64,000 nt of DNA from Eledone cirrhosa (Eukaryota). A program made the translations under genes and the position numbers. Below, in pieces: positions 8,141-55,262 of the stretch (position 1 is the first letter of the stretch; every line of letters starts with the position of its first letter). The stretch is taken from contig OZ024740.1 in NCBI GenBank assembly GCA_964016885.1, positions 361,770,001-361,834,000 of the forward strand, in the 5' to 3' direction. The notes under the pieces were generated by a model. The model had not been told where the DNA came from and did not search any database. It saw only the letters and a program-made list of their open reading frames with translations.

Positions 8141-10064
8141 ATACATTATGAAGAGAGAAGAAACATTTAGATATAATTAGTAATAAAATGTATCATACCT
8201 AAACTGCTCCTAAATTCCTCGACTACGTAGTTTCGTGGCATAAACAAAAACAATATATCATAAAGATATAGAGTCCTTGCGAGGTCTGCCGACTTATCAA
8301 GAGGATACCTCATTTTACTAGTCTCAAGAACGCGTCTACACGACGTGAGAAAGAATCCCAAAAGGCGGAGGGGGAGATAGTCACGCGATATAACGGTCGA
8401 GAAACAGAGCTAAGCCTCTTATAACCCCGAAGAAAATACCACGGAGGCGGAGGGGGTATTTATATCGAGGCCGTAGAAGAGGTGTTGAAGAAGGCGAGAA
8501 GTATGAGTAATGGAAGCTTTCCAGCTGTCCCCACACTTCAAAGATTGCTCGACCAGAGGGAGTTATTAACAATATATTTAGAAACACACAGATACATGCG
8601 GACACACACATATATACATGAATGCATCCGCACCCAACTGTGAGTTAAGGGTGCCAACTTCACCGATGTTGCTCAATGAATGACCGGGACAGACCAATTC
8701 AGTTGAACTAGACTGAACCAGTATCAGAGTTAAAAATACATTATGAAGAGAGAAGAAACATTTAGATATAATTAGTAATAAAATGTATCATACCTAAACT
8801 GCTCCTAAATTCCTCGACTACGTAGTTTCGTGGCATAAACAAAAACAATATATCATAAAGATATAGAGTCCTTGCGAGGTCTGCCGACTTATCAAGAGGA
8901 TACCTCATTTTACTAGTCTCAAGATCGCGTCTACACGACGTGAGAAAGAATCCCAAAAGGCGGAGGGGGAGATAGTCACGCGATATAACGGTCGAGAAAC
9001 AGAGCTAAGCCTCTTATAACCCCGAAGAAAATACCACGGAGGCGGAGGGGGTATTTATATCGAGGCCGTAGAAGAGGTGGTGAAGAAGGCGAGAAGTATG
9101 AGTAATGGAAGCTTTCCAGCTGTCCCCACACTTCAAAGATTGCTCGACCAGAGGGAGTTATTAACAATATATTTAGAAACACACAGATACATGCGGACAC
9201 ACACATATATACATGAATGCATCCGCACCCAACTGTGAGTTAAGGGTGCCAACTTCACCGATGTTGCTCAATGAATGACCGGGACAGACCAATTCAGTTG
9301 AACTAGACTGAACCAGTATCAGAGTTAAAAATACATTATGAAGAGAGAAGAAACATTTAGATATAATTAGTAATAAAATGTATCATACCTAAACTGCTCC
9401 TAAATTCCTCGACTACGTAGTTTCGTGGCATAAACAAAAACAATATATCATAAAGATATAGAGTCCTTGCGAGGTCTGCCGACTTATCAAGAGGATACCT
9501 CATTTTACTAGTCTCAAGATCGCGTCTACACGACGTGAGAAAGAATCCCAAAAGGCGGAGGGGGAGATAGTCACGCGATATAACGGTCGAGAAACAGAGC
9601 TAAGCCTCTTATAACCCCGAAGAAAATACCACGGAGGCGGAGGGGGTATTTATATCGAGGCCGTAGAAGAGGTGGTGAAGAAGGCGAGAAGTATGAGTAA
9701 TGGAAGCTTTCCAGCTGTCCCCACACTTCAAAGATTGCTCGACCAGAGGGAGTTATTAACAATATATTTAGAAACACACAGATACATGCGGACACACACA
9801 TATATACATGAATGCATCCGCACCCAACTGTGAGTTAAGGGTGCCAACTTCACCGATGTTGCTCAATGAATGACCGGGACAGACCAATTCAGTTGAACTA
9901 GACTGAACCAGTATCAGAGTTAAAAATACATTATGAAGAGAGAAGAAACATTTAGATATAATTAGTAATAAAATGTATCATACCTAAACTGCTCCTAAAT
10001 TCCTCGACTACGTAGTTTCGTGGCATAAACAAAAACAATATATCATAAAGATATAGAGTCCTTG
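8141..10064 (-). repeat. 595-bp tandem repeat, ~3.2 units, hammerhead on minus strand (retrozyme/pLTR-like)
   Basis: ATACATTATGAAGAG recurs at 8141, 8736, 9331, 9926 (period 595); hammerheads at 8216-8305, 8811-8900, 9406-9495, truncated at 10001-10064. Confidence 0.95.
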
Positions 10065-10413
10065 GCACCCTTAACTCACAGTTGGGTGCGGATAGATTCA
10101 TGTATATATGTGTGTGTCCGCATGTATCTGTGTGTTTCTAAATATATTGTTAATAACTCCCTCTGGTCGAGCAATCTTTGAAGTGTGGGGACAGCTGGAA
10201 AGCTTCCATTACTCATACTTCTCGCCTTCTTCACCACCTCTTCTACGGCCTCGATATAAATACCCCCTCCGCCTCCGTGGTATTTTCTTCGGGGTTATAA
10301 GAGGCTTAGCTCTGTTTCTCGACCGTTATATCGCGTGACTATCTCCCCCTCCGCCTTTTGGGATTCTTTCTCACGTCGTGTAGACGCGTTCTTGAGACTA
10401 GTAAAATGAGGTA

Positions 10414-10503
10414 TCCTCTTGATAAGTCGGCAGACCTCGCAAGGACTCTATATCTTTATGATATATTGTTTTTGTTTATACCACGAAACTACGTAGTCGA
10501 GGA
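10414..10503 (+). ncRNA. type I hammerhead ribozyme, U3:A8 variant (one stem II substitution)
   Basis: TCCTC-TTGATAA-stem II-GAAAC-TACGTA-GTC-GAGGA; this copy has TACCAC instead of TGCCAC in stem II. Confidence 0.75.
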
Positions 10504-11008
10504 ATTTAGGAGCAGTTTAGGTATGATACATTTTATTACTAATTATATCTAAATGTTTCTTCTCTCTTCATAATGTATTTTTAACTCTGATACTGGTTCA
10601 GTCTAGTTCAACTGAATTGGTCTGTCCCGGTCATTCAATGAGCAACATCGGTGAAGTTGGCACCCTTAACTCACAGTTGGGTGCGGATGCATTCATGTAT
10701 ATATGTGTGTGTCCGCATGTATCAGTGTGTTTCTAAATATATTGTTAATAACTCCCTCTGGTCGAGCAATCTTTGAAGTGTGGGGACAGCTGGAAAGCTT
10801 CCATTACTCATACTTCTCGCCTTCTTCACCACCTCTTCTACGGCCTCGATATAAATACCCCCTCCGCCTCCGTGGTATTTTCTTCGGGGTTATAAGAGGC
10901 TTAGCTCTGTTTCTCGACCGTTATATCGCGTGACTATCTCCCCCTCCGCCTTTTGGGATTCTTTCTCACGTCGTGTAGACGCGTTCTTGAGACTAGTAAA
11001 ATGAGGTA

Positions 11009-11098
11009 TCCTCTTGATAAGTCGGCAGACCTCGCAAGGACTCTATATCTTTATGATATATTGTTTTTGTTTATGCCACGAAACTACGTAGTCGAGGA
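11009..11098 (+). ncRNA. type I hammerhead ribozyme, U3:A8 variant
   Basis: Stem I TCCTC/GAGGA; core TTGATAA; stem II GT(C)GGCA/TGCCAC extended by GCAAGGAC/GTTTTTGT and TATATC/GATATA; GAAA; palindromic ACTACGTAGT stem III; GTC cleavage triplet. Confidence 0.85.
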
Positions 11099-11337
11099 AT
11101 TTAGGAGCAGTTTAGGTATGATACATTTTATTACTAATTATATCTAAATGTTTCTTCTCTCTTCATAATGTATTTTTAACTCTGATACTGGTTCAGTCTA
11201 GTTCAACTGAATTGGTCTGTCCCGGTCATTCATTGAGCAACATCGGTGAAGTTGGCACCCTTAACTCACAGTTGGGTGCGGATGCATTCATGTATATATG
11301 TGTGTGTCCGCATGTATCTGTGTGTTTCTAAATATAT

Positions 11338-11374
<37 letters not shown>

Positions 11375-12021: not shown

Positions 12022-15000
12022 CGTGGTTGACATCCATTATAATATTTAAGCATGGCAATTTATATTTAAAGATTAAAGTCATATTAAAAGAAAACAAAAT
12101 TGAAGTTAAAATACAACATTGGCAGTTCACGAAGAAAATGCAAGATGATAGTTAGAAGTAGTTAGTGTATGCAATAGTTACACGTGGGGAATGCACGTGT
12201 GTCTTATTTATATAAGATTATAGTGCGGCAGGGTGTTATATGTAATACAAGCACTTTAAGCGGGCAATCAAGAGTAATATGGGGGTTGTATTTGTAAAGT
12301 ATTTTTTAATATGTATGATATAGAAGCTTGTGTGCAGATAAATATTAAAAATATTAAAAATGAGAAGCAAAACAATGTTATGGTTTTCGTATATATCAAC
12401 ATTTTCACAATCCAGGAAATGTAATATATGGATTATATGTCCTTCACATAATCTACAATGATTCAATATTGGATGCTTGATGAAATATGTTAGAATATTA
12501 CAGCTTGTTGTTCTTTAATCCAATTTTATAGATCAGGTTGTTTATTGCGAGAATTAACATCGTATTATTTTCCGGAAGTGTGTGTGTGATTGAGGGGAGT
12601 TAATGCGTGAGGGGAGGTAACTAGCTGATTTCTATAATTAAATTTATTATCCTAATGTACATTAAATGGTGTCTTAAATGAGTCCCTATCATATAAGGTT
12701 ATAAACAGTTTCTAAATTTAAGTATCCCATCTATAATTACAGTGTAGTCTATCAAGAAGTACCAAAGGTGTTCATATTAGGATGATTACCCTCTATCATA
12801 GAGTGCCACAACTGGATATTCTACATGACGAGTCAGATCCCCAAATCAATGATCATTGTAAGTGTAGTCTACCCGCAGAACCTGGCAGGGTTTTATTAGA
12901 ATCACTTCTATATATAACTCCTGGTAAGCTCTGGGTCAGTGCATGTCTGATTGCATGGCAAAGTTAAATATCACTAGGGTAGACCAGAGATCAATTCTCA
13001 CTTACAATGTCACTAATCTGACCATCAAGTCATACATGTATGTATAACTCATACATCACTTGTACATAATTCATTGTACTCAGCATATAGGTTATATAGC
13101 TCTTTTATGTTAATAAATTAATTAATCTTCCATTTATCCAATGATGGCACTCCATACACAGAACAACATTAGCACAACCAATTCAGTGTTTAAAGTTTAC
13201 ATTAATTATATAGTGGTGTTATGTACTCTAAGTAATTGAAGGCAATTATACCAAAAGTTGATGTACATGGGGATATCTCTAGGGTAAAAGGTTCTAGAAG
13301 GATGTCAATATTTGTGTTAAAGTGGAACAATGAGTGTGGTGATGTGGTGTAAGGTGTGCCCTTGAGGTTTGTTGCTAGAGGTGGTGACGTGTTCAAGTCT
13401 GACATTGTTATATATTGGGTTTAAAGTTTTGGAAGGAGTGTCGGAAGCGGTGCTGGCAAGACGCGAACACTTCTGATTTTTTATTAAGGAGGTTATGGTT
13501 TGAGAAGATAATAGTATGGGTCTGTAGTAGACAGAGGTTAAAAAATTTATTAGGTGGTTTGTACGATGTCGCGTTACCTATCACTTCCCATTTAAGTGTA
13601 TAAGATTTATTTTTAGTTTTTAGATAGTGTATGTAGCTAGATAGTGAAGTGGAGTTGGCTAGACTGTGTTTTTAGAAAGAGTGGAGGTGTGAATTGTATC
13701 TGGTTTTGAAGCAGTTTGAAGTAGAGCCTATATAGGTTTCAGAAGAGTTGCTAGTTGTGACGGTGCATGAGTATATGATATTCTTGATTAAGCATTTTTT
13801 ATCTAAAGGGCAGGTTCTATTTGATCTACAGTTACAATAATTCTGGGTGTTATTCTGCCGGTTATTATGTTGTGTAGAAGTCTGGATGGTAGCTATAGGA
13901 TTATGGTTATGGGGGTTGTCGTTCCCAGCGTTATTGCTTACACAAGTGCTATTATTATTATTACTATTGTTATTAGGGTTAGTTGATATAACGTTATTTT
14001 GAAGGTTTATCGCGTGCTGTGATTTAGTTTGTTGGAAGTAAGAATTAATTTTTCTTTTATTGCTACTAGCTATGTGGTATGCTATGTTAGGCGTAGTAGA
14101 GTAGGAGATTTTAATAGTGTTTTTGTTTAAAAGGCTATGGTACTTGTGGCCAGATGGGAAGTTTTTATCTAGTAGTGAGAAGAAAGCCCTAGGTAGGTTG
14201 GTAGAGACGTTTAGATTGAAAGGAGGGTTGAAAAATGTGTTATTTCTTCTTCTATTTTTGTTTTTTATGTATGGTGAGTTGTTTCCTTTTATGGAACTAT
14301 GGTAATTTCTGTGGTGTGGGTTACTTTTGTTGGCATCCTCCGTATTAGTGTGTGTGTGGTTGCTATTCTTATTACTAAATTTCCTCATGGACATATTGTG
14401 CGAAATAATGTTGTAGCTATGTGTTTTTGTAGGTAGGAACTCGATCCCTATATTATGGCCTGATCTAGCTAATGCCTGATTATAATATTGCGAGTTTTTG
14501 CTAAATATGTTTACGTCATAGGATAGATTAGAGATTCTATTGGATACTCCCTTAGAGATAGAGTTTAATATTGATCTAGGGTGGTTGGACTTGGTATCTA
14601 CGTAAATCAGTTTTTCGTTAGGTTTATGGAAAGGTGTATATATCTTTGAGTCTAGGTAGAGGGTGGCGTCCAGGAAGTTAACGTTTTTAGTGTTTTTGTC
14701 CATGGTAATACTAAGGTTATAGTTTTTGAATGTCTTGTGCAATAGTTTTCTAGTTCTTTCTATATTGAATTTTTTATAGTCTATAAGTAGAAGTGCATCA
14801 TCGCGGTACAAACCACCGTTGAGGTATGGAAGGTCCTTATGGATTTCGTTAAGTAAATATAGGCCGACCAAATCAGTGACCTGCGCCGAGTCACTAGATC
14901 CAATGGTTATGTCGAAGTTGTTTTGCGTATCTTTGCGGGTCCATAATTGGTCTTCAAAGGTGATTACGGTTTTACGGGCCGCAAGTATGACATCAATCTG

Positions 15001-15975
15001 GGGTCTAGTCAGGTCACTATTGTCCATGGCCATGATTAGTGCCTTATTTAATAGGATAGGGGAAATAGAGGTGTAGTATGAATTGATATCAAATTGAATA
15101 CATTTTTTATCCTTGTTATTCTTGATATCTTTGAACCATTCAATAACTTCACCCGTATTTCCCCATTGTTTAAGGTATATCTTGTGTTTAATTTGTGGGA
15201 TGATTTTATCTAAAATTTTCTTACTGATAATACCAGTGTCAGACTTGGAAGGGCAGATAAGTCTAATCGAGGGGTTACTAATGAAGTCCTCCTTATGGTC
15301 CTTCAGAGAGAATCTAGGGTGGTTTGGGGTATATGGTTGTGTATGTCTCTGATGTCCTAGTTTGGACACTATATTATAGCCTTCCATATTAATATCTTCT
15401 AAGTTTTTCATAGTAGTTTTCTTGTAGCTTTTATGTAGTTCATTATATATAAACTTTCTATAAGTATTATAATCTAGGCTGTATATGTTATTAGTTTTGT
15501 CCGCATGTACAATAATCTTATTACTAGTTTTGAATTCATTAATAGAGGTGTTAAGTTTGTTTAAGAAGGTGTTGTTTTTATTACGGTGCTTTTTGTATTT
15601 AATGTTCTTAACTAGTTTTATTAGGTCATTTTCAAAGGAGTTTAGTAGTGTGTTATGAGGGGGGCTTCTAAAGGTTTTAAAGCCGAAGGAGTCAAATTTG
15701 TTAGTATTATTAACCTTGTTAGATTTGTTTTTATCATAATGGAATGTCCTCCATCTCACTCTATTGATAAAGGAATTTACACTGTCGTTCAATATTTTCT
15801 CATATGTATTCTTGGATGGTATTGGTATGTTCTTGGTTGACATCGGGAGTTGGTCTTTGATTCATGTAATCTCTATATAACTGCTCTGTAGAACAACTGA
15901 TGTTATTACATTGAGCTATTTATCTTACTGGTAATAAGGTAGTAATAAATTACTGTCTTTCACTATTTAGGGTTT
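12019..15975 (-). mobile_element. Naiad-type PLE body with long 3' non-coding region
   Basis: ORF above, 5' leader 15854-15975 (second copy at 48182-48301) and unique 3' sequence bounded by (TA)n at ~11982-12018; 3' boundary is inferred. Confidence 0.6.
13408..15843 (-). pseudogene. Penelope-like element (Naiad-type) RT + C-terminal GIY-YIG endonuclease, single premature TAA at 13672-13674
   Basis: N-terminal STKNIPIPS...RVRWR, ADKT, FDINSYYTSI, GSSDSAQVTDLVGLYLL, YRDD, FLD; CNCR..CPL..CL Zn linker, IIY..YIG..FKTRYNSH; reading through TAA continues in frame (KHSLANSTSLSSYIHYLK...LNKKSEVFASCQHR...) to TAA at 13408-13410. Confidence 0.9.
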
Positions 15976-16054
15976 AAAATATATATAACTATAAAAGGTT
16001 TTAGTATATACATAACCATAAATAGTATCCTTAATACTATATATATATATGTAC

Positions 16055-16203
16055 ATTCATTTAATATGGCTATTGGTGAAGTTTGTTACTCTAAAGTTTC
16101 ACCTGCGCTCTCAGAGGATCACCAATCTTGCCTGATGGTCCTGCTAGTACACAGGTGAAACTCCAGAGTAACAAGACTCATCACTTAGCCATAATAAATG
16201 AAT
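16055..16203. repeat. imperfect fold-back containing a degenerate hammerhead (16127-16175, +)
   Basis: ATTCATTTA.TATGGCTA...TTGTTACTCT..AGTTTCACCTG mirrored on the right; right arm CTTGC-CTGATGG-TCCTG..CAGGT-GAAAC-TCCAGA-GTA-ACAAG. Confidence 0.7.
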
Positions 16204-17001: not shown

Positions 17002-17006
<5 letters not shown>

Positions 17007-18078
17007 CCTCGATATGAATACCCCCTCCGCCTCCGTGGTATTTTCTTCGTGGTTATAAGAGGCTTAGCTCTGTTTCTCGACCGTTATATCGCGTGACTAT
17101 CTCCCTCTCCGCCTTTTGGGATTCTTTCTCACGTCGTGTAGACGCGTTCTTGAGACTAGTAAAATGAGGTATCCTCTTGATAAGTCGGCAGACCTCGCAA
17201 GGACTCTATATCTTTGATATATTGTTTTTGTTTATGCCACGAAACTACGTAGTCGAGGAATTTAGGAACAGTTTAGGTATGATACATTTTATTACTAATT
17301 ATATCTAAATGTTTCTTCTCTCTTCATAATGTATTTTTAACTCTGATACTGGTTCAGTCCGGTTCAAACTGAATTGGTCTGTCCCAGTCATTCATTGAGC
17401 AACATCGGTGAAGTTGGCACCCTTAACTCACAGTTGGGTGCGGATGCATTCATGTATATATGTGTGTGTCCGCATGTATCTGTGTGATTCTAAATATATT
17501 AACTCCCTCTGGTCGAGCAATCTTTGAAGTGTGGGGACAACTGGAAAGCTTCCATTACTCATACTTCTCGCCTTCTTCACTACCTCTTCTGCGGCCTCGA
17601 TATGAATACCCCCTCCGCCTCCGTGGTATTTTCTTCGTGGTTATAAGAGGCTTAGCTCTGTTTCTCGACCGTTATATCGCGTGACTATCTCCCTCTCCGC
17701 CTTTTGGGATTCTTTCTCACGTCGTGTAGACGCGTTCTTGAGACTAGTAAAATGAGGTATCCTCTTGATAAGTCGGCAGACCTCGCAAGGACTCTATATC
17801 TTTGATATATTGTTTTTGTTTATGCCACGAAACTACGTAGTCGAGGAATTTAGGAACAGTTTAGGTATGATACATTTTATTACTAATTATATCTAAATGT
17901 TTCTTCTCTCTTCATAATGTATTTTTAACTCTGATACTGGTTCAGTCCGGTTCAAACTGAATTGGTCTGTCCCAGTCATTCATTGAGCAACATCGGTGAA
18001 GTTGGCACCCTTAACTCACAGTTGGGTGCGGATGCATTCATGTATATATGTGTATGTCCGCATGTATCTGTGTGATTC

Positions 18079-18087
<9 letters not shown>
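17002..18087 (+). repeat. 588-bp variant of the 595-bp hammerhead unit, ~1.85 units
   Basis: Hammerheads at 17172-17259 and 17760-17847 (period 588); flanked by (TA)n on both sides; same 3' end point (CTAAATATAT) as the 10062-11340 array. Confidence 0.95.
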
Positions 18088-33117: not shown

Positions 33118-34830
33118 AACCAGTAAGACCCCAACGGCTGAGCTCAAGCCGTTTCGACGGCTAATTCTGGACTAAATGAAAATTTATCCTGGTATTTAAA
33201 TAGCCGAGTTTCTCAAGGGGTAATTCCATATATGGTCAAAGTGATTGTCAAAAGTTAGTAGTAATTCTGTGATTGCAAATTAGTAGGGGAGATGGTGGCT
33301 AAACCTGCCAGTAGGAGAAAAAGAGGAGGGGGTGGAGTAGACCCAATCATGCGTTGGTAGTGCCAGCTACAGCTGGGCATGAGGTCAAAGAAGATACTGG
33401 GGAGGGGGAGGGGGAGGAAGTCGAAACGGTAGGTAGAACAATGAAGGGTAAAAATATAAATATGAAAGAAAAAATACTGAGAGTGATGAAAAGCGAATAA
33501 GTGTAAAGAAGAAAGAGTATAAAAGCAAGTTCTACGACCTAAGTCTCTAGCTATTGTTAGGCTAGATAAATAAATAAAGAAAGAAATAAATAAATAAAGA
33601 AATAAATAAAGAAATAACGAAATAAGTAAATAAACTAGGTGGGACGGAATAGGCAAGGACCCTTTTAAGAGGTATAAGTACGTAAATCATACGGTGACGA
33701 GTCAACAAATGGGGCCAAAATACTAAAGAAACTACCACGAAATAAATAATAAAGGTTTCTATCCCGGGCACAAGGCCAGCAACCACCCAGTGCAGCAAAG
33801 TAAACTAGTACGAGATAATAATTCTGAGTCCCGAAAAAAATATATACTAATGCTAACTCTAAAGGTACCGCTGCGCTACAAAAGATCTTATACAAGCTAC
33901 ATGAAAGTTCGTACGAAGTAAAGGTAGAATACGGAAAAATAAATTCAGAATCCACCCCGCCCAAAAGAAAGGAGAAGAAAGAAATACTGAAACGGGAAAA
34001 TAAGGCATAAGTGCTACTAAGAAATAAAGAAGGCACGGAAAATAGGGGGAGCGGTCGGAAAAGGGGGCAAGTATCCGAGGTCTAACACAACTGCTATAAA
34101 AAGCGGAGTCCGCCAAATCTATCATAGACTAGGGGAGGGGGTGGTGGTGCTGAGGCTACAAGGGGCCAAAGGGCAGCCTCGGGTGGGCGAGAAAAGACGC
34201 CGACAAAGAAGAAGAACTGGGATAGAAGGACTAAGGAGGGATGGAGGGAAGAAGGAAATAAAGGAAGCGATAAAAGAATAAAAAGAAGATCTTACGTCTC
34301 CCTTGGCAAGCAGGGCTTACCCATTGCAAAATCGGCAAGTGGGGTGTTATAGCCCTAGTCTACCCCCCCCCCCCCGGGTCATTATGGGGTTTGAGGGCGA
34401 GGTAAGTCCTACGCAATCTATGTTTACATGCAGTAACCAGTTCATCTTTCTTGTTTAGGAGTTGGTCCGTCGAAAACAACATTTGTAAAGTTTCCTCCGA
34501 GCATAAATTGCACGGACGGCGTCCTCCCGTGTAAGAATTGGCTCTGGACAGTAATCTCCAAGTGAGATCATAGGTGATGTTGTTGTCCTTGAGGTCCCAT
34601 ATTTGGCCCGAAAGTGTAGTGGCGTGACGCCGGGCCGGGTTTCGGAAGGTATGTCTATGTTGGTATAGCCGGGTCTTGAAGTCACATGCGGTTAGTCCTA
34701 TATAAGCTTTGTTGGAGGTGTCCGTCCTCACGTTGCACTGGTAGATCACATTACGGTCTCTGCATCTATTGTCGAGTGGGCAGATGGATCTATCCGGACA
34801 GTTGCACCTCCTGGTCGGCTCTCCACTGCT
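33115..34830 (-). mobile_element. 5'-truncated Naiad-type PLE (GIY-YIG + 3' region)
   Basis: RCNCPDRSICPLDNRCRDRNVIYQCNV...AYIGLTACDFKTRLYQH...CNLCSEE...LLNKKDELVTACKHR (34360-34830); 3' region ends with a hammerhead next to (TA)n. Confidence 0.85.
33128..33221 (-). ncRNA. type I hammerhead-like motif, U3:A8 variant, at 3' end of a Naiad-type PLE
   Basis: Minus: ACCCC-TTGAGAA-ACTCGGCTA...TAGCCGTC-GAAACGGC...GCCGTT-GGGGT; sense to the GIY-YIG ORF at 34360-34830. Confidence 0.7.
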
Positions 34831-34904
34831 ATTTAGGTATGTATGTTGTATGGATGTATGTATGTATGTATGTATGTTTACATATCTTATGTAATATTTA
34901 GAGA

Positions 34905-35405
34905 TATCTGTGTATAGTGCTGAGTGGAAAAGCGCATAAAAGGCAGTTGCAAAACTTTTGAAGAATGTCGTCTAGAACAAACAACTGAAGCGTCAGCTCA
35001 GGAAGGGTTATGCTCACAGTCATGATGAAAACATCAGTAGTTGGACATGCAAATTCTGTCAACGTGTACTCTTCTTAAAAGCTGGTTATGTTAATCACCC
35101 GAATTCACATGAAAGAATAGCCACCCGCAACACCACTGAACAAAGACCTGGTGAAACAACGTGCGTGATATGTGACAAAGTGTGTAGAACTAGTTCTAGA
35201 CTAAAAGGTGGTGCATAAAGATTGTATCCCACAAAACGACCCTCCAATCTTGTGGAAAGCACAACTCTCGTCAGTCACCTGCGTCGTAGACCACGAAGAT
35301 CTACAGTTGGTCTAAAAAGTCATCTACGATGTCATGGACGCGGATGGGATGACAAGGAAGAATCAATAAGACACAGTAATCATCTATGAAGACTCTGCAA
35401 TCCTC
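34905..35405 (+). mobile_element. RTE-type LINE 3' remnant with C2H2-like motifs
   Basis: Broken CKFCQR..AGYVNH and CVICDKVC motifs, ends in (TATG)n; similar minus-strand remnant at ~51560-51950. Confidence 0.45.
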
Positions 35406-35420
35406 ATGTATGTATGTATG

Positions 35421-38400
35421 TTCTTCTGGTTTTATAATTTCACAAATTGTTTCCCAATAGAGAGAGAGTCGGTTTCTAACATAAACACAAGACTCTCTCA
35501 TTGGAATTTACACAACATCAATTAGGTAGATTATATATGCATGCATGTGTAGATATGGATGTTATTGTATGTGTGGATGTGGATGTTTTGAGTTGTATGT
35601 GTGCATATGTATATGATTTGTATCTGTACATGTGTATATGCAGTTATTAGATGCAACATTTTTGGTATGTTTTACATATTTTTACTGTTCCATTAATGGA
35701 TTGTACTTGTAATTTCCTAACTAGTTGTGTTCTTTCTGTTCCTGTGAAGCCTAGCTTCTCAAGATTTGTATTGAGGCAGTTACTAACATACTCTAGTGCC
35801 CCAATAATCACAGGCATAAATCTGAAGGTGTAATCAGGGTGGAGTATCTGCAGATTTCTTATCAGTTCTGCATAAATATTCTCCTTTTTCGCTAATCTTT
35901 GATATATCGGTATCTTCTGGGCAGCTAATTTCCACTACTCTTTCATATTATATACATGGATGTCTTCCACATTGCTGTAGCTTTTAATGTGGTTATTATC
36001 GGGGCTATCTTTTTTACGGATTGCACCGTTCAGTGTTTTGGCCTCTACATCATGCCTCATAGGTAGATAAGTACCGCGATGACATCTTTGGACAGCTGCT
36101 GAGGACATGGGTGATATCTTCGATATTAGTTCTGCAGAGTCTGCACTTGCTATCATATCTAGGTGTTTTGCCTTCATCCCTATCTCTTTTGTGAATCAGG
36201 TATTTCGTGTTAATTTCCTGTTCTTGGATTGCAAAAGCGTATCATTCAAAGTGGGAGCCAATATAACGGTTGTTGGTCCAAGATAGACAACTTTCTTTAT
36301 CTATATTTCTCTCACTCTGGAGCTTCCTGGCAACATATCCATGCATGATTTTTTGCTGATAAGCATGCAGTTTTTCATCCATGGATTCACTGCGATACTG
36401 CTGAGCGACTTCCCTGGGTGTGAGTTTTTGATTATCACACAGGGAATATCTCTTGAGGAGTTCCTTCCCAACTCTCATGATCTTATCTGTTTCATGCAGA
36501 TAGACTTGCTCGAGAGACGGGCTCCTACGCTTCGAGGTTCGTAGATGTCGGAGGGATATGATGCGACATTCAAATATTGTCTGGACTGATGTTAGGCCTC
36601 TGCCTCCCTGCTTACGTTTCAAGTAAAGGCGGCCTATGTCACTGTTGATGTGGAAGTTTCCGGTGTTGTTTAGTATTTTTCGAGTTCCAACATCAACTGC
36701 TCGGATTTCGTCTATCGTCCAATTGAGTATTCCAAACGTTGGTGTTAGGACAGGCACAGCAAACACATTGTGAGCCACTGTTTTGTTTTGCGCATAGAGT
36801 TCCGATGACCAAATCTTTCTTAATCGGGTGTAGTATTCTCTCGTTACGCGTTCCTTATTACAGATACCACTATAGGATATGTTCTCATCTATCCCCAGGT
36901 ATCTGTAGCAGTCATCATCAGATATTGGTGAAACAGTTAGGCCATTGATGACAATGTTGCTAGATTCGTTTGGTGTTTTTCCCCGCTTTACAGTCATATA
37001 TGAGCATTTATCTTGGCGAAACTCCATTCCTATATCTCTTGAGAACGTTGTAACCAGGTCAAGATTTTTCTTAATCCCATCCTTGTTCTTGGCATAGAGT
37101 TTCAGATCATCTACAAAGAAATTATGGGTTAGGTTCGTATTTCTGTCCTCCTGTAATTCAATGATGTATCCTTCACATTTCGTGAGCAGAAAGGACAAGG
37201 GGTTTAATGATAGGATGAATAATATCACAGAGAGACTGTCTCCCTGAAATATACCCCTGCGATATTTTATTTTATCAGTGAACATAGAATCCTTCCTCTC
37301 TGTCTTTAACCTTAGGATAGTAGCCCAAGAAGAAGACACTTCTCTATGGCTCTGATAATAATGTCTGGGACTTTAGCAAGTTGGAGGGCATCTATCATCC
37401 AAGAGTGGGGAACAGAATCGAAAGCTTTCCTGTAGTCTAGGCAGACTGTAGCCATATTATTCCTCCTAAGTTGTGGCACCTCCGACATCGCAGTTTTGTT
37501 GATTAGGAGTTGTTAAGCACATCCCCAAACCCCTTTCTTTCCAGCTGCTTGTTCATCTGTGATGATGTTATTATTTTCACAGTGATGTTGGAGGAATAGG
37601 TTCAGGCAGGCTGTATACATCTTATACATCAGGTTCTGGCATGCAATAGGTCGGTAGTTTTTTGCCAAGTGGGTGTCTTTGTTCTTGGGGACCAGTAATG
37701 TTTGTGCTAATGTCAACCATTCTGGTATAAGTGTATCTCCCTTAAGAACTTGTTGGTAGAGGTCAGTAAGATACCTCCGATAGAATATCAGTTTTTTGTA
37801 CCAGTAGCCGACAATCATGTCTCTTTCTGGTGTTTTCTTATCTTGGAGTTTTCCTATCACAGTCTCAAGGGTACCCTCACTTATTTCGTATGTTTTTGTT
37901 GTAGTGTAGGAGCAATAGTTCTTTCGGATTTCTTTTAGCCACAATGCATCTTGGTTGAAATTCTTCTTTTCACCCCATATTTTGCTCCAAAAGGAATCTA
38001 TATCTTTCTGGGATGGGTCCTCAGTGACACTTATTATTTTGTTCTTCATATCTCTATAGACTGATGTTTGGTTTCGTCTGAATCTTTTATTAAGCACTTT
38101 TCTCTCATCTACCTTCTTCAGGTATCGGCGTTTTTCGCTAACAGCTCTCAATTCTTGTTTAACGGTGATCAGCTTATATTGAAGAGTTCTGGTTCTACTG
38201 TTACCAAACATCGTCTCTATTTTATTTTTCACTCTTTGTTGGTGATGAGTGAGGTTTTTTTGTGTTTGTTTGCATGTAAGCAGCATTGTCACATATCCTA
38301 TGGTTTTTCGTAGGTCAGCAATCTTTTTTTCTATTTTAGTTATATATGATGGTATTTTTGGTGGTGTTCTGTTCTTGTTAATATCTCTGCTATCACCAAG

Positions 38401-39302
38401 ATAATGCTTCACTGTCGTTTCTAAGGCATATAAACAGGCGTTGATTTGCCAAAATGTTGGGGTTTTTAATCGTCGTAAATACTCATCCCCTATTTCGTCA
38501 ATAACACGTAATATTTCATTATTTGTTTTTTTATTAAATATTGTCGTTTTAATACGTTCAGCAAGAGAGATATTTATACATGAATTAATTTCTCTCTGGA
38601 AGATTTGGCTGAGGGAAATTTTCAATTGTTTATAGTTTTGATTATTATCATTATCGATAATATTTTCCACAACAGTCAAGTTAGACTCAGATGGTACAGG
38701 TGGTGTCAAATTTCTTCGATTATTATTATTATCGATAGTGTTTTCCCAGCATTCGATGTAGACTTAGATGGTACACGTGGTGTCAGGTTTCTTACAGGCA
38801 TAGTTGTTTCAAGGCACTGTTTGACCTGGCTGCTAGGAAGTCTAGTAGCATGGCGACCTGTAGCACGTGTTGTTGACCCCATGTTTGTTGTGGGGGACTT
38901 ACAATTAATAATATTTATCTTATTTTTACGTTCAACAAACGTCGCTTGTTGGCGTAATTGTTTCGCCGTGAAATAATTTAGCTCTGGGTGCATTTCGTCC
39001 CAGTGTAGCTTCATTCTGTTCATATAGCCAATGGAGGGATTTTTTTTTGCCATTTTATAACAATTAAATAAATCATCATTAAGTTCGCAACTCCAAGAGA
39101 AATGCGATTTATAATTTCGGTTTCTTCTGTAGCTACAACTGAATAAAGTTTGTTTCCCTTTCTCGTTGTTTGTCTTCGATACTTCCTTAATTTTATTGTT
39201 GATGCTGTGTTCAGCCATGCTGTTTGTAGCAAATCCTTGTAAAATGAATTATGTATTTAGTCGGATATCTCTACGAATTCGAATAAAAGGTGTCTTCAGA
39301 AG

Positions 39303-54229: not shown

Positions 54230-55262
<1,033 letters not shown>

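What the first reader, a model, noticed from the sequence alone, without database searches (positions are those of the whole stretch)
11009..11098. Hammerhead core UUGAUAA: compensated U3:A8 variant fixed in all seven complete copies
Seen: positions 3-9 read TTGATAA rather than CTGANGA, with G5, A6, A9, GAAA and GUC intact. Established: C3 and G8 form a tertiary Watson-Crick pair in the active fold, and U3:A8 preserves it and is a known rare natural variant. Inference: the double change in both the 595- and 588-bp subfamilies indicates selection for catalysis; such motifs evade canonical-core searches. Stem II is a ~60-nt multi-segment hairpin that may supply tertiary contacts.
Basis: partly seen in the sequence, partly recalled or inferred. 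Interest (0 to 1): 0.8.

Follow-up and report, generated by a model that had tools for sequence, protein, structure and literature searches.

The report
Variant hammerhead ribozyme in jumping repeat
A roughly 590-base non-coding repeat, present about 7,500 times in this animal genome, carries a hammerhead-shaped RNA with a known swapped core pair, an unusually long arm and a likely pseudoknot; it likely cuts itself in pairs and likely spreads with the enzymes of Penelope-type jumping genes.

Summary
Seven complete type I hammerheads in the window read UUGAUAA (U3:A8), and stem II is 59 nt. The argument for selection is wrong: the 595- and 588-bp units differ by only 13 substitutions, and genome-wide the free position N7 is as fixed (10 variants of 5,966) as positions 3 (11) and 8 (14). 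The conclusion survives on better evidence. In older subfamilies, down to 51% identity, U3 and A8 stay fixed while N7 varies and stems I, II and III change compensatorily. The host is a ~7,500-copy non-LTR retrozyme with Penelope-type insertion marks: (TA)n targets, two fixed 3' ends, inverted arms. Stem III is a covarying palindrome, which points to dimer cleavage. The long stem II carries a likely Watson-Crick pseudoknot, shared with 607 canonical C3:G8 hammerheads of this genome, where one pair covaries. U3:A8 itself is published, including ~1,300 schistosome hits. Activity and expression are untested. Verdict: new structural variant of a known kind.

The parts
11009..11098 (+). Type I hammerhead, the copy named in the finding
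11014..11020 (+). Core positions 3-9 (U3 at 11014, N7 at 11018, A8 at 11019)
11002..11007 (+). 5' strand of the predicted pseudoknot, just upstream of stem I
   Evidence: 98% mean conservation over 11002-06 against 58% for the 10 nt upstream; 92% of cells paired
11029..11034 (+). 3' strand of the predicted pseudoknot, in the internal loop of stem II
11021..11079 (+). Stem II: proximal helix with one bulge, internal loop, distal hairpin 11035-11069
11083..11092 (+). Stem III, a perfect 10-nt palindrome (predicted dimer interface)
11093..11094 (+). Predicted cleavage site, after C17
   Evidence: hammerhead numbering
11115..11119 (+). Conserved GGTAT, resembling a 5' splice donor (role untested)
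   Evidence: 98% conserved in 36 rows; similar motif in 17 of 30 C3:G8 relatives
10414..10503 (+). Complete hammerhead copy with one broken stem II pair
9406..9495 (-). Complete hammerhead copy
8811..8900 (-). Complete hammerhead copy
8216..8305 (-). Complete hammerhead copy
10001..10064 (-). 5'-truncated hammerhead (3' half only) at the inversion joint
17172..17259 (+). Complete hammerhead copy, 588-bp unit
17760..17847 (+). Complete hammerhead copy, 588-bp unit
8141..10064 (-). Left arm of an inverted retrozyme insertion (3.2 units of 595 bp), 3' end 80 nt past the cleavage site, in (TA)n
10062..11340 (+). Right arm of the same insertion (2.1 units), 3' end 247 nt past the cleavage site, in (TA)n
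17004..18087 (+). Second, one-armed insertion (1.8 units of 588 bp) between (TA)n runs
10499..11093 (+). One unit-length monomer, cleavage site to cleavage site (595 nt, 42% GC)
   Evidence: circular fold -178.6 kcal/mol, z=-6.8 against 40 shuffles

Best explanation
This is a type I hammerhead with a U3:A8 core in every unit of a high-copy, non-coding tandem repeat that is likely a non-LTR retrozyme, likely self-cleaving as a dimer and likely copied into (TA)n runs by a Penelope-like element's enzymes. SHOWN in sequence: the core, the stems with compensatory changes, about 7,500 copies, two fixed 3' ends in (TA)n, variable 5' ends, inverted arms. INFERRED: (1) tandem units are transcribed; (2) two ribozymes pair through the palindromic stem III; (3) a 4-6 bp pseudoknot between the strand upstream of stem I and the internal loop of the long stem II replaces the usual loop 1-loop 2 contact; (4) U3:A8 forms the core pair that C3:G8 normally forms, so cleavage after GUC gives ~590-nt monomers that would circularise; (5) a Penelope-type RT/GIY-YIG protein nicks both strands of a (TA)n target and starts reverse transcription at two internal sites about 80 and 244 nt past the cleavage site, one per arm. 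U3:A8 is an old inherited state kept by purifying selection, not a recent double change.
For: Core fixed and N7 free: in 32 of 32 older copies chosen by the 3' half alone that still had a 5' half, positions 3 and 8 were U and A, while N7 was T, A, G or C (8 more of the 40 had lost the 5' half). In 36 representatives 51-100% identical to the window copy, 90.5% of cells pair and 9 of 30 pairs change on both sides (62 cells, against 0-17 when slid). Dimer: 31 of 36 stem III sequences are perfect palindromes of three kinds, and the two centre bases, which cannot pair in a hairpin, covary (TA 20, CG 14). The duplex is -12.9 kcal/mol against +1.5 for the hairpin. Pseudoknot: 607 canonical-core hammerheads share the layout (control 0). 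In 30 of 30 examined, the unconstrained next pair is UA, CG or UG, against GC here. A U3:A8 element (L225) aligns in register with a C3:G8 element at 72% over 359 nt, with compensated stems. Mobility: 59 of 62 3' ends fall at two sites, and 22 of 27 two-armed insertions pair one of each. This matches the two internal start sites and two-strand extension shown for an anole Penelope-like element (PMC11167929). Many intact Penelope-like ORFs exist in this genome. U3:A8 is reported active in vitro and natural (PMC3088659).
Against: No cleavage or RNA data exist for this element. Among young copies there is no sign of selection per position. The representatives are related along a ladder, so cells are not independent events. 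17 or so of the 36 came from patterns that fixed or flanked the core. Inside the family the pseudoknot barely covaries (1 of 6 pairs), and its sixth pair is A.G in 6 of 36. L225 lacks the loop partner. With upstream context the nested-fold model gives stem I only 3% probability, because a local hairpin (48%) competes (pseudoknots and dimers are not modelled). Stem II position 10.2:11.2 is unpaired in 7 of 36. No autonomous element with a homologous terminal repeat was found among the loci held. In the anole element, ribozyme cleavage was not needed for insertion in vitro.
Confidence: 0.8

Rival explanations
1. The ribozyme is under selection, but insertion uses uncleaved multimeric RNA. Cleavage is slow or protein-assisted, and circles are a by-product or absent.
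For: Copies run through the cleavage site and never end at it. In the anole Penelope-like element, ribozyme mutants did not affect insertion, unprocessed RNA was the main template, and cleavage needed protein (PMC11167929). Metazoan PLE hammerheads were slow in vitro (PMC4209133).
Against: The circular monomer folds far better than shuffles (z=-6.8). Coral, mussel and axolotl retrozymes make abundant circles (PMC7229834). This differs from the best explanation only in step 4-5 detail.
Confidence: 0.25
2. The youngest subfamily (the one in the window) carries an inactive or attenuated ribozyme inherited from active ancestors, and spreads by read-through transcription alone.
For: A local hairpin can sequester the 5' strand of stem I, and stem II has a bulge after two pairs. 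N7 and core positions decay alike among young copies.
Against: On the branches leading to the young subfamily, stem I, stem III and the distal hairpin changed compensatorily while the core did not change.
Confidence: 0.1
3. Ordinary satellite DNA homogenised by recombination, with a chance hammerhead look.
For: Tandem units are 99% identical within an array. Rfam gives no hit.
Against: Copies are dispersed as 1-6 unit insertions on many contigs with fixed 3' ends. There is covariation in four helices.
Confidence: 0.02

Closest known systems
Metazoan non-LTR retrozymes (PMC7229834; bioRxiv 10.64898/2026.07.22.740005)
   Same: Non-coding tandem repeats with one type I hammerhead per unit, GC under 45%, thousands of copies, a strongly folded monomer, co-occurrence with Penelope-like elements. 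The length is within the reported 51-972 bp range.
   Different: U3:A8 core; 59-nt stem II instead of the canonical 4-bp helix with loop; predicted Watson-Crick pseudoknot; longer than the 170-400 nt circles tested. Descriptor searches for canonical or minimal cores would likely miss it.
U3-A8 minimal hammerheads related to Schistosoma mansoni Cercyon PLEs (PMC4209133)
   Same: Same core covariation in an animal retroelement at high copy number (about 1,300 hits); palindromic helix III.
   Different: Those were heterogeneous, mostly single minimal motifs. This one is a full motif in homogeneous tandem units with a long stem II.
Pseudoknotted hammerheads of Perreault et al. 2011 (PMC3088659)
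   Same: A Watson-Crick pseudoknot between stems I and II replaces loop-loop contacts (about 40% of their representatives); natural U3:A8 reported in several examples.
   Different: The tested case was a type II metagenome ribozyme. Here the partner lies in an internal loop followed by a 35-nt distal hairpin, in a type I animal retroelement.
Penelope-like element insertion mechanism (PAc; PMC11167929; PMC8557442)
   Same: Internal start of reverse transcription at two sites, AT-rich targets, 5' truncation, inverted arm, a tail at one end only.
   Different: The distance between the two ends is about 164 nt, not 30-40. There is no ORF. The two arms nearly always use different ends.

Membership tests
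Hammerhead ribozyme, type I | Core U4 G5 A6, A9, G12 A13 A14, A15.1-U16.1, H17 | tested here: met
   Invariant in 36 of 36 rows (partly fixed by the extraction pattern)
Hammerhead ribozyme, type I | Watson-Crick pair possible between positions 3 and 8 | tested here: met
   U3:A8 in 32 of 32 unbiased copies; C3:G8 in an aligned homolog of L225
Hammerhead ribozyme, type I | Three helices around the core, stem I open, supported by covariation | tested here: met
   two-sided changes in stems I, II and III
Hammerhead ribozyme, type I | Score above the gathering threshold of an Rfam hammerhead model | tested here: not met
   canonical-core long-stem relatives also fail, so this reflects the models' stem II length
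Hammerhead ribozyme, type I | Self-cleavage after N17 | not testable with these tools
   needs in vitro assay
Non-LTR retrozyme | Short tandem repeat, one type I hammerhead per unit, GC under 45-50%, no ORF, no LTR/PBS/PPT | tested here: met
   (42% GC; no ORF of 100 codons inside a unit); PBS and PPT not searched separately
Non-LTR retrozyme | Expressed as linear and circular unit-length RNA | not testable with these tools
   no RNA run listed
Non-LTR retrozyme | Homology to the terminal repeat of an autonomous Penelope-like element | tested here: inconclusive
   none with the one PLE family examined (30 loci) or in other loci held; other PLE families not sampled
Penelope-type insertion | Fixed internal 3' ends, variable 5' truncation, inverted arm, microsatellite target | tested here: met
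Dimer-cleaving hammerheads | Unstable, palindromic helix III | tested here: met
   dimer cleavage itself untested

The most novel reading that the evidence does not exclude
The U3:A8 core of this lineage arose not by two point mutations but by a register shift: a second half-core 12-13 nt downstream took over catalysis, and the old C3:G8 half-core survives as the pseudoknot strand. This would be a natural route around the fitness valley of a tertiary base pair. It would come on top of an undescribed pseudoknotted, long-armed, dimeric hammerhead in which the 3:8 pair switched twice in one genome. For: 37 family copies read CUGANGAG on the pseudoknot strand, and such copies sit at the end of the ladder opposite the youngest subfamily (unrooted). 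Against: 35 of those 37 keep the inner U3:A8 core (read by eye), none has only the outer core, the C3:G8 superfamily has the same strand beside its own core, and L225 shows the switch in register.
Probability: 0.1. Interest if true: 0.7.

Novelty: new variant of a known kind. Interest (0 to 1): 0.42.

Why it matters
U3:A8 and retrozymes are both published, so the headline is not new. The value lies elsewhere. (1) One genome holds over 8,000 hammerheads of one long-armed layout that Rfam misses, with both core states, so current surveys likely undercount retrozymes. (2) The subfamily ladder is a ready natural mutant series for testing a pseudoknot, dimer cleavage and the context dependence of the 3:8 pair. 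(3) The rule that the two arms of an insertion use different fixed start sites bears on the open question of how Penelope-type tails and inversions form.

Tried and rejected
RNA evidence: no RNA holder listed, so nothing on expression. Four small-share runs gave only near-identical low-depth fragments and no cross-species covariation. Two runs of unrecorded kind each hold one 620-621 nt contig that closes on itself; tandem DNA explains this equally well, so it was not used. One raw-read run did not hold the element. Contig variants at 2% or more avoided the core in run X1, but long non-core stretches were also free of them; not used. A DNA search of the genome returned nothing because the words are too common. 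Per-position decay among young copies gave no selection signal. The first hits looked like a C3:G8 sister family; four of six proved to be U3:A8 members whose pseudoknot strand mimics a core. Homology between the main U3:A8 lineage and the C3:G8 superfamily outside the ribozyme: nhmmer found none above the reversed control, and pairwise alignments were marginal (mostly 8-40 of 300 shuffles as high), so it is not established. The neighbouring Penelope-like ORF shares no sequence with the repeat and has no Pfam or PDB hit. Three look-ups of earlier findings were empty. Three key papers on 3:8 mutants and on dimer cleavage were not held, so no rate constants for U3:A8 are cited. Whether L225 stands for a family was left open.

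Full report
OBSERVATION. Window 11009-11098(+) is a type I hammerhead layout: stem I, core UUGAUAA, a 59-nt stem II, GAAA, a short stem III and GUC. Seven complete copies and one 5'-truncated copy lie in two insertions, 8141-11340 (inverted, 595-bp units) and 17004-18087 (588-bp units). Rfam has no hammerhead hit in the window.

The two unit types differ by 13 substitutions and 9 gap columns in 596, so they share the core by descent. In the 3.0-Gb genome (species not established), 5,966 sites match the young family's flanks with positions 3, 7 and 8 left free. Of these, 11 differ at position 3, all keeping A8. 14 differ at position 8, all keeping U3. 10 differ at N7 (9, 1). None has C3:G8. The free position is as fixed as the paired ones, so fixation among young copies shows nothing about selection.

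BETTER EVIDENCE FOR SELECTION. Looser patterns found older subfamilies (894 matches; 330 matches); the whole lineage has 7,547 matches against 1 control. From 110 distinct ribozyme regions I took 49 clusters. I aligned 34 of them plus two window copies, leaving out junction artefacts, deletions and two unrelated or redundant clusters. Identity to the window copy runs from 51 to 100%. The core is invariant and N7 is T21, A10, G4, C1. Because some rows came from patterns fixing the core, I also counted loci chosen by the 3' half alone: of 40 copies, 8 had lost the 5' half, and all 32 others have U3 and A8, two with damage at positions 4-5. Pairs change on both sides in stem I (2 pairs), stem II (1), the distal hairpin (4) and stem III (1). 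62 cells show such changes against 0-17 for slid structures, though the number of such pairs does not exceed shuffles (150 of 500). The tree is a ladder, so these are few events. U3:A8 is therefore an old state kept while the helices were remodelled. The switch itself is seen once, elsewhere: L225 (U3:A8) aligns in register with a C3:G8 element at 72% over 359 nt, E 5e-41, with compensated stems. L225 is a single copy, so decay is not excluded.

DIMER. Stem III is a perfect 10-nt palindrome. As a hairpin it costs +1.5 kcal/mol; as a duplex of two ribozymes it gives -12.9. 31 of 36 rows are perfect palindromes of three kinds, and the centre pair covaries (TA 20, CG 14) although it can pair only between two ribozymes. 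Palindromic helix III and dimer folding are described for animal type I hammerheads (PMC4209133; PMC6765202).

PSEUDOKNOT. The strand 11002-07 is complementary to 11029-34 in the stem II internal loop. Both are 94-98% conserved among neighbours at 58-70%, but they barely covary within the family. A pattern with this layout and a canonical core gives 607 matches, control 0. In the 30 examined, the pair next to the fixed GAG:CUC, which the pattern left free, is UA 15, CG 11, UG 4, against GC here. The pairs beyond it mostly do not form, so the shared helix is about 4 bp. These C3:G8 elements form one homologous superfamily with 657-683 bp tandem units in two loci. Their homology to the main U3:A8 lineage outside the ribozyme is not established. 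L225 lacks the partner. Pseudoknots between stems I and II are known in about 40% of hammerheads (PMC3088659). A nested-fold model shows a competing local hairpin in the young family, so constructs must include the upstream strand.

HOST ELEMENT. The unit is non-coding, 42% GC, and folds strongly as a circle (z=-6.8, 40 shuffles). In 82 loci examined, 59 of 62 distinct 3' ends lie 74-81 or 243-250 nt past the cleavage site, nearly all followed by (TA)n, while 5' ends are scattered. Of 27 two-armed insertions, 22 pair one end of each kind, 1 has two of the same kind and 4 have another end (22 of 23, p=3e-6 against a half). This matches Penelope-type insertion: inverted truncated arm, tail at one end, microsatellite bias (PMC8557442), and two internal start sites with both strands extended (PMC11167929). 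The genome has many intact ~830-aa relatives of the Penelope-like ORF at 13672-15861(-). No shared terminal repeat was found, so the helper is unidentified.

COMPARISON AND NOVELTY. It works like, and meets the sequence criteria of, a non-LTR retrozyme (PMC7229834; bioRxiv 10.64898/2026.07.22.740005); expression is untested. Natural U3:A8 is in print (PMC3088659), including about 1,300 hits in S. mansoni (PMC4209133). Eight paper searches (listings only, except the papers named) showed no description of this long-stem, pseudoknotted layout in an animal retrozyme. Supplements of PMC3088659 and PMC4209133, which hold the alignments, were not read and may contain such cases.

WHAT I SAW OF EACH PAPER. 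PMC3088659: outline and sections 7-9. PMC4209133: parts 1-2 of 4. PMC11167929: parts 1-2 of 4. PMC7229834: section 14 and passages. bioRxiv 10.64898/2026.07.22.740005: part 1 of 5 and passages. PMC8557442, PMC6765202, PMC3884650, PMC7151607: passages. The C3-G8 pair is cited second-hand from PMC3884650; the primary papers were not held. The GIY-YIG, YRDD and splice-donor motif readings are recalled, not from a call.

VERDICT. A real and probably functional hammerhead in a known kind of element. The U3:A8 headline is known; the long-armed pseudoknot layout, the two core states in one genome and the two-end insertion rule are the parts worth testing. Interest 0.42.

Noticed in passing
window 13672-15861 (-), element about 12170-16100: Penelope-like ORF (RT with YRDD, cysteine-rich linker, start of GIY-YIG; motif names recalled). 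The 729-codon frame stops inside the endonuclease. The genome has dozens of intact ~830-aa relatives at 84-96% identity.
   Followed up: partly
window 16070-16190: Short inverted repeat upstream of the Penelope-like ORF. Its + strand reads as a small hammerhead-like motif with A9G and a near-palindromic stem III at about 16124-16175; one related copy is in L199.
   Followed up: partly
L168-L197, L053, L056, L226: A second, older superfamily of long-stem-II type I hammerheads with canonical C3:G8 core, palindromic stem III and the same pseudoknot layout; 607 genome matches; two of its loci checked (L178, L226) have no Rfam hit.
   Followed up: partly
L225:781-1145 (-): Single U3:A8 member of the C3:G8 superfamily with a 12-nt palindromic stem III and no pseudoknot partner; possibly a second origin of U3:A8.
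   Followed up: partly
window 11115-11197 and equivalents: A conserved donor-like GGTAT about 20 nt past the cleavage site is followed by branch-point-like and pyrimidine-rich sequence and an AG. It may be a remnant of the intron known in Penelope terminal repeats; untested.
   Followed up: no
L054, L226 about 80-95 nt upstream of the pseudoknot strand: A TTGACC...CACGTGAT motif is shared by the two lineages; a candidate internal promoter element.
   Followed up: no
window 11023: The bulged stem II base is C in most young copies and U in several hundred, as expected for an unpaired position; CpG decay may also contribute.
   Followed up: partly
window 36242-38763 (-) and 34360-34971 (-): Further retroelement frames: an RVT_1 hit at 36245-37372 and a GIY-YIG-like fragment at 34645-34800 resembling the Penelope-like ORF.
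   Followed up: no
window 54322-55262: Two exact 485-bp tandem units; the hammerhead model gave no hit there.
   Followed up: no
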